Positions 1 through 50,805 of a stretch of DNA of 50,805 nucleotides are shown in pieces (the first letter of the stretch is position 1; each line of letters opens with the position of its first letter). Source of the DNA: a virus; the IMG/VR virus record IMGVR_UViG_3300025159_000004, positions 1 through 50,805 of that record; one strand, given 5' to 3'. The notes beneath the pieces were generated by a model. It made no database searches and was not told the DNA's origin. It saw only the letters and a program-made list of their open reading frames with translations. Position numbers and translations under genes: made by a program.

Positions 1-99
1 ACGGGGTCGACACTCCCATCAACACTAGAAAGAACGCTCGTCATCCAGCCAGACATCGCGGGGATGCCTGACTCACGATATGTGCTCATCGTGGGTAAT
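1..99. repeat. Exact 99-bp terminal direct repeat, copy 1 (identical to 50707-50805); circular or terminally redundant assembly overlap
   Basis: Read directly: the first 99 nt equal the last 99 nt, and ORFs run through the junction. Confidence 0.95.
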
Positions 100-20553: not shown

Positions 20554-21137
20554 TACCGCACCTTACAAATCAACCGCGGCACGTCACCGCCCACAGCCTG
20601 CTCCCACACACGCCGCCACCAGTCTTCGCCCTTACGCAGCGGGTAGACGTCCCAACCGTCAGGGAGCGGAGCCGCAGATGGCCATAGGAGAATCGCGCCA
20701 ATCGGGGCACTGCCAGTATCTCCCTTGGCGCCTTTCGGTCCCGGGGAGCCCAGCTTACCCTCCGGACCCTGTGGACCCTCAGGACCGATAGTCCCGCGGG
20801 GGCCAACGGGACCAGAGGGGCCAGCAGGCCCGGGCACGCCTTTGTCACCCTTTGGACCTTGGCTCCCAGCAGGGCCACGTGGTCCGTCCGGGCCCGTCTT
20901 ACCAATCGGCCCCGATTCACTACGTGGCCCAACCTCACCACGTTCACCGCGCGCGCCGACAGGGCCTACAGCGCCCCGAGGGCCGGGCGCACCAACGTCC
21001 CCTTTAGGCCCCTGCACGCCAGGCTCGCCCTGTGGGCCACGCGGGCCAGGAACGCCCTGTGAACCCTGCTTGCCGTCCGGGCCAGGCGGGCCGGTCTCTA
21101 CGATACGCTTCTCTTCGTTTCCACTATAGATAGGCAT
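20553..21137 (-). CDS. collagen-like triple-helix-repeat fibre protein (194 aa)
   Basis: About 40 uninterrupted G-X-Y triplets (GPPGPDGKQGSQGVPGPRGPQGEPG...). The start was set to ATG 21137 (TAATG overlap). Confidence 0.8.
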   Translation of the reverse strand: MPIYSGNEEKRIVETGPPGPDGKQGSQGVPGPRGPQGEPGVQGPKGDVGAPGPRGAVGPVGARGERGEVGPRSESGPIGKTGPDGPRGPAGSQGPKGDKGVPGPAGPSGPVGPRGTIGPEGPQGPEGKLGSPGPKGAKGDTGSAPIGAILLWPSAAPLPDGWDVYPLRKGEDWWRRVWEQAVGGDVPRLICKVR

Positions 21138-21976
21138 TAGGCCATTCTCACCTGCACCGTCGCGCGGTTCATGGCGCTCGCGGTGGAGAAGAACACAGAG
21201 AGTCCGTCTGAGAACCGCTCCCATAGGGGCTCGCCACTCCCAGCAAACTCCAGCGTCCCGTTGTCGCCAAGCGCTTCCGTCAGCAGATGGATGTTCCAGA
21301 GCTCGATGGAGGCAGCGATTCCCGCAGTGGTATCCGGTGCCGTTGTGGCACGGACGTTGACCGCATAGTACCCATCAGGGATGTCACCAAGACTCGACGT
21401 GCGACCCCAGTCCCATGGCGTGTTGAAGACGAGCAGTTGCTCGCCAGTCGTGTACTCAGCAGCGCCTGTACCATCGGATGCGTAGAAGTCAGTCGCCGTG
21501 AAGTTGGTCCAACCTGTACCAGCCGAGTCGCTATACCGCACCGCCCGCGTGGGGTTCGTCGCATCCGCGGATGCCGTGGAGACGTTGAGCGTGACACAGT
21601 TGAATCGCTCGCGGCTTGCCACGACGTAGCCATCGTTATTGGTCGTCGTCTCAAGCGGGAAGTCGTCGGTTACCGTGTCCTGCGCGGCGGTGGTGTCGTC
21701 GCTATACTGTGTAGCGCCACCGGTATCGTCCCACTGGCCAGCAATCCAGAGCCGATTGGGCACGCGCCAGCCGATACCAACATTCGCTGCGCCACCGCTC
21801 CGATTGTGGAGGGACGCATAGAGTACCACAATACCCTCTAGCTTGCGATCGTTGCCGTTGTGGTCTTTGAACGTACCCGGAACGTAGAGAAGGTTGGTAT
21901 CCGTCTGATGATACGTGCTGCGGAGTTTTCCTGTGGGTGTGCCTGTGAACGTCTTGTAGATTGGCAGATGAGGCAT
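21137..21976 (-). CDS. structural protein (279 aa)
   Basis: AGGAGA RBS upstream of ATG 21976; lies in the late operon. Confidence 0.75.
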   Translation of the reverse strand: MPHLPIYKTFTGTPTGKLRSTYHQTDTNLLYVPGTFKDHNGNDRKLEGIVVLYASLHNRSGGAANVGIGWRVPNRLWIAGQWDDTGGATQYSDDTTAAQDTVTDDFPLETTTNNDGYVVASRERFNCVTLNVSTASADATNPTRAVRYSDSAGTGWTNFTATDFYASDGTGAAEYTTGEQLLVFNTPWDWGRTSSLGDIPDGYYAVNVRATTAPDTTAGIAASIELWNIHLLTEALGDNGTLEFAGSGEPLWERFSDGLSVFFSTASAMNRATVQVRMA

Positions 21977-22017
21977 GATGTCTCCTGGGGAGTAGACCCC
22001 ACGATTGTGGTACGTGA

Positions 22018-22053
22018 TGGCTCCCGGTGATGGACTCGAACCACCACCGGGAG
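22018..22053 (-). ncRNA. tRNA-like acceptor/T-arm minihelix ending in CCA (no D or anticodon arm)
   Basis: The minus strand reads CTCCCGGTGGTGG-TTCGAGT-CCATCACCGGGAG-CCA. This is a 13-bp stem with a T-loop-consensus 7-nt loop and a 3' CCA. Confidence 0.55.
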
Positions 22054-22063
22054 CTAGTTGTTC

Positions 22064-22702
22064 TTACAGACCTTCCTGTGTTGCGTGCAGCTGGACGCCC
22101 AGCGGATAGGCGTTCAAGAGCCGCCGCCCGCCAAGGATGTTCTTACGCGGACCAGCAGTCCTGCGCGGCGTATAGCGGATCTCCAGCCCGAGGAAGCTCA
22201 CTTCATCGGCTGAGAAGGTGCCAATAGCGTCAGCCTCCACGACCAGCCCAACCATCGCGCAATCGGTATCGAGCGTGTTACGGTTGAGTATCCCAAAGCC
22301 CGTAGCCTGGAGTGCCAGCGCATCGTCACTGGAAGCGTCCGTGCCAATGACAGTATTGAGCCCCGTGCCGGTGCCACCAGCGACGTCCGTCAGCGCCTCG
22401 TCTTCCGCAAACTGCGTGTAGGTGACCAGCCACGTCATGATGTCGGTTGTGACACCCTGCGTCTGCGTCCACCACACGCGGAAGCGGATCTGCTTACTGC
22501 GATCAACATCTGATGGCATCCAGATGGTTGCCCAGCTGTCGCCTGCCGCATTCACCTGGCCACCCGTGAGACCAAACGTGCTGATCTCCTGGAAGACCGG
22601 GTCACCGGCTGCGACGCCCGCTCCTGTGACATATGTCTGGAACGCCTGAGCAGGGATGAACTCCCGGTGCTCAAGCCAATCGACGTTAAAATCCCTAATC
22701 AA
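22064..22702 (-). CDS. structural protein (212 aa), TTG start
   Basis: AAGGAGA lies 5 nt upstream of TTG 22702. Confidence 0.7.
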   Translation of the reverse strand: MIRDFNVDWLEHREFIPAQAFQTYVTGAGVAAGDPVFQEISTFGLTGGQVNAAGDSWATIWMPSDVDRSKQIRFRVWWTQTQGVTTDIMTWLVTYTQFAEDEALTDVAGGTGTGLNTVIGTDASSDDALALQATGFGILNRNTLDTDCAMVGLVVEADAIGTFSADEVSFLGLEIRYTPRRTAGPRKNILGGRRLLNAYPLGVQLHATQEGL

Positions 22703-22751
22703 ATCCGTCTCCTTGGCCCACTATATGCTACGGGTGGGCTTCTGTTTATGA

Positions 22752-22827
22752 TGGAGCCCCGCCGTGGAGTCGAACCACGACCTGGTCGGTTACAAACCGT
22801 CCGCTCTGCCTGTTAAGCTAACGGGGC
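22752..22827 (-). tRNA. trnT: tRNA-Thr (anticodon UGU), CCA encoded
   Basis: A hand-folded 76-nt cloverleaf: acceptor GCCCCGT/GCGGGGC, D arm GCTT/GAGC, anticodon loop TTTGTAA, T arm CGTGG-TTCGACT-CCACG. There is one A-A mismatch in the anticodon stem. Confidence 0.85.
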
Positions 22828-22837
22828 TCTAGCCAGA

Positions 22838-23769: not shown

Positions 23770-25062
23770 TTACTCAACGTGAATGTTATTGACCGTCACA
23801 TCGATACCATCCCACCGGATGCACTTGTTGGGTGCATCGAGGAAGAAGTTATCGACGAGATAGAACAGCCCGGTGGCCGTATGCGTCGCGGCGGCTGGAA
23901 GCAGCACGGAGCCACCCCAGTCTTCGAACTTCCCGGGCACCACGGAATACCGGACAAGCGTCGAAGGGTCGATGCCCATCAGCATCCCATAGGGGAAGTT
24001 GTAGTCCACCTTGATCGGCATGGTCGACCACGTGATCGTCTGACCGTACTTGCCCATCTTCGACCCAGCATCGGGGTTGACGGAGCCACTACCATCGTAG
24101 CGGACGTCGCCCTCGCGGAGGGCCAGAAGCTGGCGCCGCACAGCCTGCTCGCACAGGAAATACTGGATATGCCCGCGCCCGCGAGCATACGCCACGTCGA
24201 TTCCCTGTTGGAGGATGTCACTTGACAGCGCGCCCACGCTTGCGAACACGTAGGACTTGAGCGCATCCCAGGTCGTCCGGTTCAGACCGAAGTAGTCCGA
24301 CACATACGTGCCGTCGTCGATCATCCCCAAAAGACCCATAGGCGCCTGATACCACGACGTATCTGCGACATCCGTCACCGTGAGCGAATGTGCGCGAACG
24401 AGGACGTCGTTGTCAGCAAGCGTCGGGTTGGACGCCCACGTGACGGTGATGTTGTTATAGTTGCTCGACGGAGCGACGGCTGCTACTGTTCCGACTGAGT
24501 TGGTCACGATAGCGCCAGTATTGATGGCCGCGATGATCTGGCCAACTTGGAAGAAGCGTGAACCGTTGCTCACGCCCGTAGGCATGGCCACCCCGCCAGG
24601 GGTGTCCACCCCAAGCACGCCAGCCGTATCGTCACCCGTGGCCCACCCCAGGACGTCTGCGCCATAATGGCACATGGCCTTGTTGCGGATGTCCACGAGA
24701 TTCTCGACAAGGTGATCCATGATGAAGCTCAGCGTCCGCACGAAACTTCCGCGGTTGGTCTGAGCCTGGTCAATGGCTTCCTTGGTGATCTGGAAACGCG
24801 CTGCCGACTTGCGGAACGGGATCGTGAAGAACCCGCTCTGCTCGGCGCTCGGGGTGGGAAGCTGACGCCCCTCACCCACGAACCCGATACCGGCGTGGTC
24901 ACGGCGCAGATGCGCCGGAAGAATAACGCGCCGCCCGTCCGCCGAAGACGTATCGCCGTCGGTAAACAGGTCAAGCGCTACAGACTCTGTGTGAACGAGT
25001 TCGACGATGTAATCCTCGTACTCGTCCTTCAACAGAGGGTTAACGGCGCTGAGGTCCATCAT
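23770..25062 (-). CDS. major capsid protein, HK97-fold type (430 aa)
   Basis: Its size, its position after the scaffold and portal genes, and its sequence character fit the phage_capsid family. This was not verified by search. Confidence 0.75.
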   Translation of the reverse strand: MMDLSAVNPLLKDEYEDYIVELVHTESVALDLFTDGDTSSADGRRVILPAHLRRDHAGIGFVGEGRQLPTPSAEQSGFFTIPFRKSAARFQITKEAIDQAQTNRGSFVRTLSFIMDHLVENLVDIRNKAMCHYGADVLGWATGDDTAGVLGVDTPGGVAMPTGVSNGSRFFQVGQIIAAINTGAIVTNSVGTVAAVAPSSNYNNITVTWASNPTLADNDVLVRAHSLTVTDVADTSWYQAPMGLLGMIDDGTYVSDYFGLNRTTWDALKSYVFASVGALSSDILQQGIDVAYARGRGHIQYFLCEQAVRRQLLALREGDVRYDGSGSVNPDAGSKMGKYGQTITWSTMPIKVDYNFPYGMLMGIDPSTLVRYSVVPGKFEDWGGSVLLPAAATHTATGLFYLVDNFFLDAPNKCIRWDGIDVTVNNIHVE

Positions 25063-33376: not shown

Positions 33377-33407
33377 GGGGGAGGGAGCTCGCACCGCCCC
33401 CTCCCCC
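33377..33407. other. 9-bp all-G/C hairpin (GGGGGAGGG / CCCTCCCCC) opening a C-run tract
   Basis: Read directly: 13-nt loop, followed by C5, C3, C3, C6 and C4 runs up to 33445. Confidence 0.5.
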
Positions 33408-34809: not shown

Positions 34810-34850
34810 GGGGCGTGGGGAGAATGGGCTTCCCACGCCCCATTCCTTTT
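34810..34850 (+). terminator. intrinsic terminator
   Basis: A perfect 10-bp stem GGGGCGTGGG/CCCACGCCCC with a 12-nt loop is followed by ATTCCTTTTG. Confidence 0.7.
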
Positions 34851-46179: not shown

Positions 46180-46431
46180 ATGACACCGCAGGGTGGACTG
46201 GAAGGGCGCCAGCGGCGGGTTCATACCCCGCATGACGAGAGTTCGAATCTCTCCCCTGCTACCATTGAGCCCGATAGACGAGAGGCATTTACGTGTGTTG
46301 TCTGCTGGGAAGATCGACACGAAAATGTTACGCTAACTGAGGCCCCACTTGAATTCAACAACCGCTCGGTCGAAGTCATCCACAAATGGTACTGCCCAAA
46401 ATGCGGGCGCGAAGTTACATTTGGGCTCTAG
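46180..46431 (+). CDS. zinc-ribbon protein (83 aa) whose N-terminal codons overlap the tRNA-like element
   Basis: AGGAGG lies 7 nt upstream of ATG 46180. The zinc ribbon is CVVC...CPKC. No in-frame ATG, GTG or TTG lies downstream of the tRNA-like sequence. Confidence 0.5.
   Translation: MTPQGGLEGRQRRVHTPHDESSNLSPATIEPDRREAFTCVVCWEDRHENVTLTEAPLEFNNRSVEVIHKWYCPKCGREVTFGL
46187..46264 (+). tRNA. tRNA-Met-like (anticodon CAU), initiator-like features, non-canonical D-arm spacing
   Basis: Acceptor CGCAGGG/CCCTGCT with a C1-U72 mismatch. D stem CTGG/CCAG. Anticodon arm GCGGG-TTCATAC-CCCGC. T arm GAGAG-TTCGAAT-CTCTC, then ACCA. It is 78 nt and has extra connector nucleotides. Confidence 0.5.
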
Positions 46432-50477: not shown

Positions 50478-50777
50478 ATGGCACCCACTAAACCCCTGAC
50501 CATTTGGGTCCATCCTCGCTGGGCCAAGCATCCGGCCATCTGTGAACTGGAGACTAAAGGGCATACTATCGTGGATATGGGCCAACCAGGCCCGTGGGCT
50601 GAGCCGGATCTCATCCTTCACCCCTCAGCTTGGCGCTGGAATGAAGAACTCTGGAAGTACATCGACATCACCATCAAGGAGGCTCGGCGTGCTAAATATC
50701 CACCCGACGGGGTCGACACTCCCATCAACACTAGAAAGAACGCTCGTCATCCAGCCAGACATCGCGGGGATGCCTGA
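50478..50777 (+). CDS. hypothetical protein (99 aa) running into the terminal repeat
   Basis: The ORF ends inside the 99-bp repeat. Its stop overlaps the ATG of the ORF annotated at 64. Confidence 0.65.
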   Translation: MAPTKPLTIWVHPRWAKHPAICELETKGHTIVDMGQPGPWAEPDLILHPSAWRWNEELWKYIDITIKEARRAKYPPDGVDTPINTRKNARHPARHRGDA

Positions 50778-50805
50778 CTCACGATATGTGCTCATCGTGG
50801 GTAAT
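50707..50805. repeat. Exact 99-bp terminal direct repeat, copy 2 (identical to 1-99)
   Basis: Read directly. Confidence 0.95.

What the first reader, a model, noticed from the sequence alone, without database searches (positions are those of the whole stretch)
22018..22053. Free-standing tRNA acceptor/T-arm minihelix with encoded CCA between two late structural genes
Seen: in the 87-nt gap between the 212-aa and 279-aa late genes the minus strand reads CTCCCGGTGGTGG-TTCGAGT-CCATCACCGGGAG-CCA. This is a 13-bp stem with a single G-U pair. Its 7-nt loop matches the tRNA T-loop consensus (TTCRANY), and it is followed directly by CCA. There is no D arm, no anticodon arm and no U-tract, so it is neither a full tRNA nor a classic intrinsic terminator. 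A genuine tRNA-Thr sits one gene upstream. Established: acceptor/T-arm minihelices are recognised by RNase P, CCA-adding enzyme, EF-Tu and several aminoacyl-tRNA synthetases. Inference: it could be an mRNA processing or stability signal inside the late polycistron. It could also be the collapsed remnant of a tRNA gene, or a decoy for host factors or toxins that recognise the tRNA acceptor end.
Basis: partly seen in the sequence, partly recalled or inferred. Interest (0 to 1): 0.72.

Follow-up and report, generated by a model that had tools for sequence, protein, structure and literature searches.

The report
tRNA-Gln-derived minihelix in a phage hairpin slot
Between two late genes of an uncultured phage lies an RNA hairpin that is exactly the acceptor arm and T arm of a glutamine tRNA with the middle 41 bases missing; related phages carry ordinary hairpins at the same spot, so a tRNA relic probably serves as the gene-boundary stem-loop.

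Summary
On the minus strand, 22054..22020 forms a perfect 14-bp stem with one G.U pair and the loop UUCGAGU, ending in CCA (22020..22018). It is the most stable perfect hairpin in the 50.7-kb circular phage genome.

The tRNA likeness is not chance. The loop plus 3' arm recurs in more than 115 real tRNA-Asn and tRNA-Gln genes. The hairpin equals nt 1-7 plus 49-74 of a tRNA-Gln(CTG) from a Candidatus Lustribacter MAG, wobble included. It is therefore a tRNA-Gln lacking nt 8-48, with an encoded CCA like the phage's two real tRNA genes.

The hairpin function does not need the tRNA features. About half of the relatives carry a strong G+C hairpin at the same place, just after the 212-aa gene. Their sequences are unrelated, with no T-loop, CCA or U-tract. 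They show sense-strand G.U pairs, and one pair of relatives shows a compensatory change. In the slot upstream of that gene, tRNA-Thr genes and plain hairpins alternate among relatives.

Best reading: a collapsed tRNA-Gln gene serving as the lineage's intercistronic RNA stem-loop (3'-end protection or attenuation). RNase P cutting, as at plant mitochondrial t-elements, is possible but untested. There is no evidence for a decoy, attP or DNA-level role. Interest is moderate.

The parts
22018..22054 (-). tRNA-Gln-type minihelix: G(-2) C(-1), acceptor 5' strand U1-U7, T arm nt 49-65, acceptor 3' strand nt 66-72, discriminator G73, CCA
   Evidence: Sequence. MFE fold and z-score. Strongest hairpin in the window. 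Exact match to nt 1-7 and 49-74 of the L043 tRNA-Gln(CTG).
22041..22054 (-). 5' arm of the 14-bp stem: two leader bases, acceptor 5' strand and T-stem 5' strand
22034..22040 (-). 7-nt loop UUCGAGU. It is identical to the T-loop of the matched tRNA-Asn/Gln genes.
22020..22033 (-). 3' arm of the stem: T-stem 3' strand, acceptor 3' strand, G73 and C74
22018..22020 (-). Encoded CCA. C74 is paired with G(-2). The next bases are UCA, the same CCAUCA trailer as after the phage tRNA-Thr.
21987..22000 (-). Second, small hairpin GGGG-UCUACU-CCCC, directly followed by the AGGAG ribosome-binding site (21982-21986) of the 279-aa gene. The 12-nt core is identical in relative L036.
22064..22702 (-). Upstream 212-aa gene. 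Predicted beta-sandwich (jelly-roll) protein of unknown role. In relatives its stop codon is followed by a hairpin.
21137..21976 (-). Downstream 279-aa gene. Confident beta-rich model, with only a weak structural hit to a chain of the LME-1 portal-tail complex.
22752..22827 (-). Genuine tRNA-Thr(UGU) with encoded CCA, in the slot upstream of the 212-aa gene. In relatives this slot holds a tRNA-Thr, a plain hairpin or nothing.

Best explanation
The element is a relic of a tRNA-Gln gene, probably phage-borne, that lost nt 8-48 (D arm, anticodon arm and variable loop). What remains is the acceptor stem stacked on the T arm, plus CCA.

It sits in an intercistronic slot just after the 212-aa gene, where this phage lineage normally keeps a strong G+C-rich RNA stem-loop. 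Its main job is the job of that stem-loop. It works in cis on the late transcript and marks the boundary after the 212-aa gene. It would block 3'-to-5' exonucleases, or make RNA polymerase pause or partly terminate there. Either way the upstream genes are expressed more than the downstream ones.

Shown: tRNA ancestry, positional conservation of the hairpin and RNA-level (sense-strand) pairing. Inferred: the stabiliser or attenuator mechanism and the direction of the expression difference. Open: whether the tRNA features are still read by RNase P and the 3'-processing enzymes.
For: tRNA ancestry:
- The loop plus 3' arm pattern hits more than 120 genome stretches; of the 130 stretches scanned (120 genome, 10 viral), ARAGORN called 115 tRNA-Asn(GUU) or tRNA-Gln(CUG/UUG), all starting TCCCGGT.
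- The L043 tRNA-Gln(CTG) matches nt 1-7 and 49-74 exactly, including the G50.U64 wobble.
- A palindrome-correction origin would have erased that wobble.
- CCA is encoded, as in the phage tRNA-Thr and tRNA-Met genes, and the CCAUCA trailer is shared with tRNA-Thr.
- Phage-borne tRNA-Gln genes with this acceptor stem exist in IMG/VR (L158, L159, L164).

Hairpin slot:
- All five relatives first found with the 212-aa/279-aa gene pair have a 10-12-bp G+C hairpin in the gap.
- Across 29 distinct loci, 48% have a perfect hairpin of -16 kcal/mol or better within 60 nt of the stop codon. The figure for 1490 background windows is 1.6% (Mann-Whitney p = 9e-4).
- Three of four further relatives have one too.
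- The sequences and loops are unrelated.
- L021 and L022 differ by a compensatory U-A to G-C change.
- G.U pairs on the sense strand are frequent, which places the structure in RNA.

Interchangeability: in the slot upstream of the same gene, 4 of the 24 distinct loci examined carry tRNA-Thr, about 10 carry a strong plain hairpin and the rest have little or none.

Stability: the minihelix stays in the MFE and centroid folds of a 281-nt context.
Against: - No transcript data exist, so no RNA end or expression ratio has been observed.
- The hairpin has no U-tract, so it is not a canonical intrinsic terminator.
- A clean nt 8-48 deletion that leaves a perfect coaxial helix, an intact T-loop and CCA is a very tidy outcome for decay alone. 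That may point to selection on the tRNA features themselves.
- No intermediate was found, meaning a relative with a full tRNA-Gln in this slot.
- The roles of the 212-aa and 279-aa proteins are unknown, so the idea of a head/tail expression boundary is an inference.
Confidence: 0.6

Rival explanations
1. Active tRNA-type punctuation, like a t-element. The tRNA features are the point. RNase P cuts at the 5' side of U1 (22052), or one base upstream. The 3' side is matured as for a CCA-encoding tRNA gene. Together with the tRNA-Thr upstream, this would free a separate mRNA for the 212-aa gene and give the 279-aa mRNA its own 5' end.
For: - The architecture is that of RNase P model hairpin substrates and of the acceptor/T-stem stack that RNase P measures: 12 bp, a T-loop and GCCA (PMC4919913, PMC12710915, PMC6614837).
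- The T-arm motif GGTTCRANYCC that was used to find plant mitochondrial t-elements is present (PMC1920247).
- The T-loop, G73 and CCA are perfectly preserved.
- The 212-aa gene is bracketed by tRNA-Thr and the minihelix.
- tRNA genes and hairpins alternate in the neighbouring slot.
Against: - Relatives manage with plain hairpins that have no tRNA features.
- C(-1) and G(-2) pair with G73 and C74. This hides the RCCA motif and, for model substrates, is expected to shift or weaken cleavage (PMC12710915).
- RNase P cutting would strip the protective hairpin from the upstream mRNA.
- No RNA ends have been observed.
Confidence: 0.28
2. Trans-acting small RNA. The minihelix is excised as an RNA of about 35 nt ending in CCA. 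It then titrates host factors that read the tRNA acceptor end, such as defence toxins that modify or cut CCA tails, the CCA-adding enzyme or EF-Tu.
For: - It is built only from the parts such factors read.
- Defences aimed at the acceptor end exist, and some accept truncated acceptor-stem substrates: Cas12a3 (PMC12851939), toxSAS FaRel2 (PMC11559606) and MenT (PMC7450476).
- It lies in a late operon that is probably highly transcribed.
Against: - There is no evidence of excision.
- It occurs in one phage lineage only.
- No partner gene is nearby.
- Relatives have plain hairpins in the same slot.
- A decoy would be expected early in infection, not in the late operon.
Confidence: 0.05
3. Ordinary terminator-like hairpin whose resemblance to a tRNA is coincidence.
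For: - Relatives have ordinary hairpins here.
- Cultured phages have partly similar palindromes at chance-level E-values: Lilbeanie (E = 7e-3) and Olliecat (E about 1).
Against: - The 19-base pattern falls in register inside 108 real tRNA genes among the 120 genome stretches returned, against about 4 chance hits expected in the whole genome collection.
- The match to one tRNA-Gln is exact, including the wobble.
- The helix is 12 bp and is followed by G73 and CCA.
- No comparable hairpin occurs in 1.3 Mb of control DNA.
Confidence: 0.03
4. Integration-site remnant (attP-like). The 3' part of a tRNA-Gln/Asn gene would be carried to rebuild the host tRNA after integration.
For: - Nt 49-76 correspond to the block that T-loop-type att sites carry.
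- tRNA 3' fragments with this acceptor occur in other viral contigs (L165-L167).
Against: - No integrase was found among 40 ORFs of the complete circular genome.
- The site lies inside the late operon.
- The 9-nt 5' extension that completes the acceptor stem is not explained by an att core.
Confidence: 0.02
5. DNA-level palindrome, for example a protein-binding site, an origin or a packaging signal.
For: It is a near-perfect inverted repeat.
Against: - The G.U pair would be an A.C mismatch on the other strand.
- Relatives keep sense-strand G.U pairs and show a compensatory change, but share no sequence.
- It lies 9 nt after a stop codon, inside an operon.
Confidence: 0.02

Closest known systems
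Plant mitochondrial t-elements (tRNA-like processing signals in mRNAs; Forner et al. 2007, PMC1920247)
   Same: - A tRNA-derived structure embedded in an mRNA precursor.
- It contains the GGTTCRANYCC T-arm motif and an acceptor-like stem.
- It sits next to protein-coding genes.
- It is proposed to be read by RNase P and RNase Z to make mRNA ends.
   Different: - t-elements usually keep a degenerate cloverleaf. This one is a clean two-arm minihelix with encoded CCA.
- It is in a bacteriophage, not an organelle.
- Processing is not demonstrated here.
- Relatives use plain hairpins instead.
RNase P model hairpin substrates (pATSer and pMini types; PMC12710915, PMC6614837)
   Same: A 12-bp acceptor/T-stem helix, a T-loop and a 3' GCCA. 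This is the same design as the synthetic minimal substrates.
   Different: - This one is natural and lies inside a long transcript.
- The two leader bases pair with G73 and C74, giving a 14-bp stem. The RCCA motif and the cleavage site are therefore partly buried.
Truncated tRNA genes and tRNA pseudogenes in phage and bacterial genomes
   Same: Sequence identity to a real tRNA family, with part of the gene missing.
   Different: - Decay usually leaves 5' or 3' fragments or scattered mutations.
- Here the deletion removes exactly nt 8-48 and leaves a perfect helix.
- The relic occupies a slot with a conserved structural role.
Intercistronic or 3' stem-loops that set differential expression in phage late operons, such as terminator or RNase III hairpins after capsid genes (from general knowledge)
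   Same: - A strong G+C hairpin just after an upstream virion gene.
- Position is conserved while sequence is free to vary.
- Gordonia phage Lilbeanie has such a palindrome right after its major head gene.
   Different: - No U-tract.
- The stem is too short and too regular for a classic RNase III site.
- The sequence is tRNA-derived.
tRNA-like domain of tmRNA, and mascRNA-type tRNA-like small RNAs (from general knowledge)
   Same: An acceptor stem, T arm and CCA used without an anticodon function.
   Different: - Those have dedicated genes, partner proteins and proven processing.
- No Rfam family matches here.

Membership tests
Canonical tRNA gene | Cloverleaf with D arm and anticodon arm | tested here: not met
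   ARAGORN finds only tRNA-Thr and tRNA-Met in the window. The Rfam tRNA model gives no hit at the hairpin even at E up to 10. Nt 7 is joined directly to nt 49.
Canonical tRNA gene | 7-bp acceptor stem, 5-bp T stem, 7-nt UUCRANY loop, discriminator base and CCA | tested here: met
   Sequence. Identical to nt 1-7 and 49-74 of the L043 tRNA-Gln(CTG).
tRNA gene remnant / pseudogene | Significant sequence identity to a real tRNA family, with part of the gene missing | tested here: met
   More than 120 genome hits against about 4 expected; 108 of the 120 genome stretches (115 of all 130 scanned, viral included) are called tRNA-Asn or tRNA-Gln, in register.
Intrinsic (Rho-independent) terminator | G+C-rich stem-loop | tested here: met
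   14-bp stem; the hairpin alone folds at -28.4 kcal/mol.
Intrinsic (Rho-independent) terminator | U-tract immediately 3' of the stem | tested here: not met
   The tail is CAUCACGUACC. The terminator scan does not list the site.
t-element-like tRNA-type processing signal | GGTTCRANYCC T-arm motif within an acceptor-like helix, inside an mRNA precursor | tested here: met
   GGTTCGAGTCC at 22042-22032(-), between two same-strand ORFs. The criterion is from PMC1920247.
t-element-like tRNA-type processing signal | mRNA or small-RNA ends coincide with the ends of the element | not testable with these tools
   No transcript data are available for this uncultured phage.
RNase P minimal substrate | 12-bp coaxial helix with T-loop and 3' RCCA | tested here: met
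RNase P minimal substrate | Unpaired N(-1) and accessible RCCA | tested here: not met
   C(-1):G73 and G(-2):C74 are paired in the MFE and centroid folds.
attP / tRNA 3'-end integration core | Integrase gene in the same element | tested here: not met
   No integrase or recombinase domain in 40 ORFs of the circular genome.
Lineage-conserved intercistronic RNA hairpin after the 212-aa gene | Strong sense-strand hairpin within about 60 nt of the stop codon of the 212-aa homologue | tested here: met
   The window hairpin starts 9 nt after the stop. 48% of 29 relatives have one, against 1.6% of background windows. One compensatory change between L021 and L022.

The most novel reading that the evidence does not exclude
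The minihelix is cut out of the late transcript by RNase P and 3' trimming. It then accumulates as a discrete RNA of about 35 nt, a CCA-ended 'half-tRNA' that acts in trans. The most likely role would be a decoy for host factors or defence enzymes that recognise only the acceptor/T-arm face of tRNA, such as CCA-tail nucleases, toxSAS pyrophosphokinases or MenT/AbiEii nucleotidyltransferases. That would make it a natural counterpart of the synthetic minihelices used in the laboratory.
Probability: 0.06. Interest if true: 0.85.

Novelty: new variant of a known kind. Interest (0 to 1): 0.5.

Why it matters
- It is a clean natural example of a tRNA gene reduced to exactly the acceptor/T-arm minihelix. 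That half of tRNA is the part read by RNase P, the CCA-adding enzyme, EF-Tu and several defence toxins.
- It sits where relatives keep a generic stem-loop. This shows that tRNA genes and plain hairpins can replace one another in phage intercistronic slots, and it suggests how phage tRNA genes are gained and lost.
- If the tRNA features are still read, it would extend tRNA-type punctuation of polycistronic mRNA, known from mitochondria, to phages.
- It offers a ready test object: one phage carries the minihelix, and its relatives carry plain hairpins in the same context.
- The exact match to an Eremiobacterota tRNA-Gln is also a weak lead to the unknown host.

Tried and rejected
- Near-identity search of the 2.4-kb region against cultured phages found nothing.
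- My first loci pattern had one N too many and falsely suggested that identical contigs lack the hairpin. The alignment corrected this.
- A metagenome scan with the 279-aa alignment failed because no stretch was conserved enough.
- More distant relatives of the 279-aa gene have a different upstream gene, tightly coupled with no gap, so they say nothing about the slot.
- Rfam at permissive thresholds gives only noise. This includes an RtT hit at 11 bits against a gathering score of 45.
- Polymorphism among five 99%-identical contigs is uninformative. No variant lies anywhere in 21700-22400.
- A short-query blastn against cultured phages found mostly T arms of real phage tRNA genes. It also found three intergenic look-alikes at chance-level E-values (Lilbeanie, Olliecat group, GTE7), none with the full minihelix.
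- Structure prediction and fold search did not assign a role to the 212-aa or 279-aa proteins. PDB sequence searches found nothing.
- No relative with a full tRNA-Gln in the slot was found.
- Rejected readings: a permuted or split tRNA, because the downstream small hairpin has a 6-nt loop and no anticodon-arm features. The attP and DNA-palindrome readings are dealt with under the rival explanations.

Full report
**1. What is there**

On the minus strand the 87-nt gap (21977-22063) lies between a 212-aa ORF (22064-22702) and a 279-aa ORF (21137-21976). It reads GAACAACUA-GCUCCCGGUGGUGG-UUCGAGU-CCAUCACCGGGAGC-CAUCACG....

G22054 pairs with the first C of the CCA.
- It has one G.U pair and a 7-nt loop that fits the T-loop consensus.
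- The gap folds at -41.7 kcal/mol (z = -5.2; 0 of 200 shuffles as good).
- The hairpin persists in the MFE and centroid folds of a 281-nt context.
- It is the most stable perfect hairpin in the whole window.
- ARAGORN and Rfam see no tRNA there, even at permissive thresholds.
- A real tRNA-Thr(UGU) lies one gene upstream, at 22752-22827.
- The same sequence is present in at least five independent assemblies that differ from the window by about 1% elsewhere.

**2. The tRNA likeness is not chance**

In tRNA numbering the hairpin is U1-U7, G49-C65 (the T arm), A66-A72, G73 and CCA. U1-A72 with G73 is the signature of bacterial tRNA-Gln and tRNA-Asn (my own knowledge).

I scanned one genome per GTDB species with GGTTCGAGTCCNNNACCGGGAG (19 fixed bases, about 4 chance hits expected in 596 Gb).

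- I ran ARAGORN on the 130 stretches then in hand (120 genomic, 10 viral).
- ARAGORN called 68 of them tRNA-Asn(GUU) and 47 tRNA-Gln(CUG/UUG). All begin TCCCGGT, and the pattern sits in register at nt 52-73.
- One of them, the tRNA-Gln(CTG) of a Candidatus Lustribacter MAG (L043, Eremiobacterota), is identical to the hairpin at nt 1-7 and 49-74. This includes the G50.U64 wobble.

The hairpin is therefore this kind of tRNA-Gln with nt 8-48 removed.

- The retained wobble argues against an origin by copying one arm onto the other.
- The phage's own tRNA-Thr and tRNA-Met genes encode CCA. The tRNA-Thr trailer (CCAUCA) is the same as the minihelix trailer.
- Phage-borne tRNA-Gln genes with this acceptor stem exist in IMG/VR.

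**3. Genome context**

The window is a complete circular assembly with a 99-nt terminal overlap. It is a podovirus-like phage. The recognisable genes are:

- small and large terminase subunits, a T7-type portal (weak match) and a major head protein at 23770-25062;
- a collagen-like fibre, a DUF2341/BNR protein and an SU10-type adaptor;
- on the other strand, replication genes including a family A DNA polymerase.

No integrase was found among 40 ORFs scanned.

The 212-aa protein is predicted to be a beta-sandwich with only weak structural neighbours. The 279-aa protein gives a confident beta-rich model whose only marginal match is a chain of the LME-1 portal-tail complex. That the gap separates head-side from tail-side genes is therefore an inference.

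**4. What relatives show**

- Homologues of both flanking proteins are common in soil and groundwater metagenomes.
- Every relative first found with the 212-aa/279-aa gene pair (L036, L037, L011, L021, L022) has a 10-12-bp G+C hairpin in the same gap.
- In a wider set of 29 distinct loci, 48% have a perfect hairpin of -16 kcal/mol or better within 60 nt of the stop codon of the 212-aa homologue. Only 1.6% of 1490 background windows do (details).
- Three of four further relatives agree.
- These hairpins share no sequence. Their loops are UUCG, ACUAC, ACAAC, UCUACU, UGAAC and others. None has a T-loop, an NCCA tail or a clear U-tract.
- Sense-strand G.U pairs are frequent. L021 and L022 differ by a compensatory U-A to G-C change. 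The structure is therefore selected at the RNA level.
- The tRNA-like version occurs only in the window phage.
- In the slot upstream of the 212-aa gene, 24 distinct loci (the window phage's own among them) were examined: 4 carry tRNA-Thr(UGU), about 10 carry a strong plain hairpin and the rest have little or none. In this lineage, tRNA genes and plain hairpins occupy the same intercistronic slots.

**5. Most likely mechanism**

The conserved function belongs to a generic RNA stem-loop placed just after the 212-aa gene. It probably protects the upstream mRNA 3' end, or pauses or partly stops transcription. Either way expression drops across the boundary. This step is inferred from position and from analogy with hairpins after highly expressed phage virion genes.

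In the window phage the stem-loop is supplied by the collapsed remains of a tRNA-Gln gene (shown by sequence). I put 0.6 on this combined reading.

**6. Main rival**

The main rival (0.28) is that the tRNA features are still used, as in plant mitochondrial t-elements.

- Those elements were found through the same GGTTCRANYCC motif, and they direct RNase P and RNase Z cuts that make mRNA ends (PMC1920247).
- RNase P binds the acceptor/T-stem stack and measures from the elbow (PMC4919913).
- It cleaves hairpin substrates of exactly this design (PMC12710915; PMC6614837).

Against this, relatives do without tRNA features. In addition, C(-1) and G(-2) pair with G73 and C74, which buries the RCCA motif. 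For model substrates such pairing is expected to shift the cleavage site.

**7. Minor rivals**

- A trans-acting decoy for acceptor-end-targeting defences is conceivable, because such defences exist and some accept truncated substrates (PMC12851939; PMC11559606 and PMC7450476). It has no support here (0.05).
- Coincidence, attP remnant and DNA palindrome are each at or below 0.03, for the reasons given with the rival explanations.

**8. Comparison with known things and novelty**

The closest known things are t-elements, RNase P model substrates, truncated tRNA genes, and post-capsid hairpins in phage late operons. It is not a member of any Rfam family. No equal element was found in 50,697 cultured phage records.

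I rate it a new variant of a known kind: a tRNA relic reused as, or doubling as, an intercistronic stem-loop. Interest is 0.5. The exact deletion of nt 8-48 and the interchange of hairpins and tRNA genes are neat and testable. The conserved function looks ordinary, and no use of the tRNA features is demonstrated.

**9. Host lead**

tRNA-Gln(CUG) genes with this acceptor stem and T-loop come mainly from Eremiobacterota/Vulcanimicrobiota MAGs. The Gln(UUG) versions come mainly from Actinomycetes, and the Asn versions from Azospirillum and Eremiobacterota.

Noticed in passing
window 21982-22001 (-); L036 2937-2948 and 2973-2984; L037 about 1990-2003: A second, small hairpin (GGGG-UCUACU-CCCC) abuts the AGGAG ribosome-binding site of the 279-aa gene. 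Its 12-nt core GGGTCTACTCCC is identical in the 61%-identical relative L036, where it occurs twice, once as the tip of the big hairpin. L037 has GGGGUUGCACCCC at the same place. It may be a translational or protein-binding operator.
   Followed up: partly
window 22703-22837 (-), and the same slot in L201, L202, L204, L207, L211, L224 and others: The slot upstream of the 212-aa gene holds tRNA-Thr(UGU) in 4 of the 24 distinct loci examined, a strong plain hairpin in about 10, and little or nothing in the rest. tRNA genes and hairpins look interchangeable there.
   Followed up: partly
window 1-99 and 50707-50805: The first 99 bases equal the last 99. The window is therefore a circularly closed assembly of a phage genome of about 50.7 kb.
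   Followed up: yes
window 33377-33407 (-) and 34810-34841 (+): These are the only two other perfect hairpins of 12 bp or more in the genome (about -27 kcal/mol each). They flank the divergent region between the late (minus-strand) and early (plus-strand) gene blocks. The plus-strand one is followed by a T-rich tail.
   Followed up: no
window 46187-46264 (+): ARAGORN calls the tRNA-Met(CAU) as 78 nt with the anticodon at position 36, which is unusually long. It encodes CCA. It was not checked against Rfam or for initiator versus elongator features.
   Followed up: no
L219 1201-1229 (Curtobacterium phage Olliecat; also Squircle and Buldak): An intergenic 12-bp hairpin, TCCCGGTGGTGG-TTCGA-CCGCCACCGGGG, lies between the Cas4 and metallophosphoesterase genes. 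It shares 18 of 18 bases with the window's 5' arm and the start of the loop, but has a 5-nt loop and no CCA. The BLAST E-value is about 1, so it may be chance or a second, more decayed tRNA-Gln relic. It is identical in the 91%-identical phage Buldak.
   Followed up: partly
L220 about 1204-1222 (Gordonia phage GTE7; also GMA7, Amore2 and HayZem): An orphan T-arm-like sequence, GGTGGTTCGAGTCCACC, lies in an unannotated intergenic region. ARAGORN calls no tRNA there. It may be a degenerate tRNA.
   Followed up: no
L218 1501-1542 (Gordonia phage Lilbeanie): The palindrome GGGCTCCCGGTGA...TCACCGGGAGCCC lies immediately after the major head protein gene. Its stem resembles the window's, but the loop is not T-loop-like. 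It is an example of a post-capsid hairpin in a cultured phage.
   Followed up: partly
L165-L167 (IMG/VR contigs): These viral contigs carry 3' fragments of tRNA-Asn/Gln-type genes with the same ACCGGGAG acceptor strand, but ARAGORN calls no tRNA. They look like att-site or prophage-boundary fragments.
   Followed up: no
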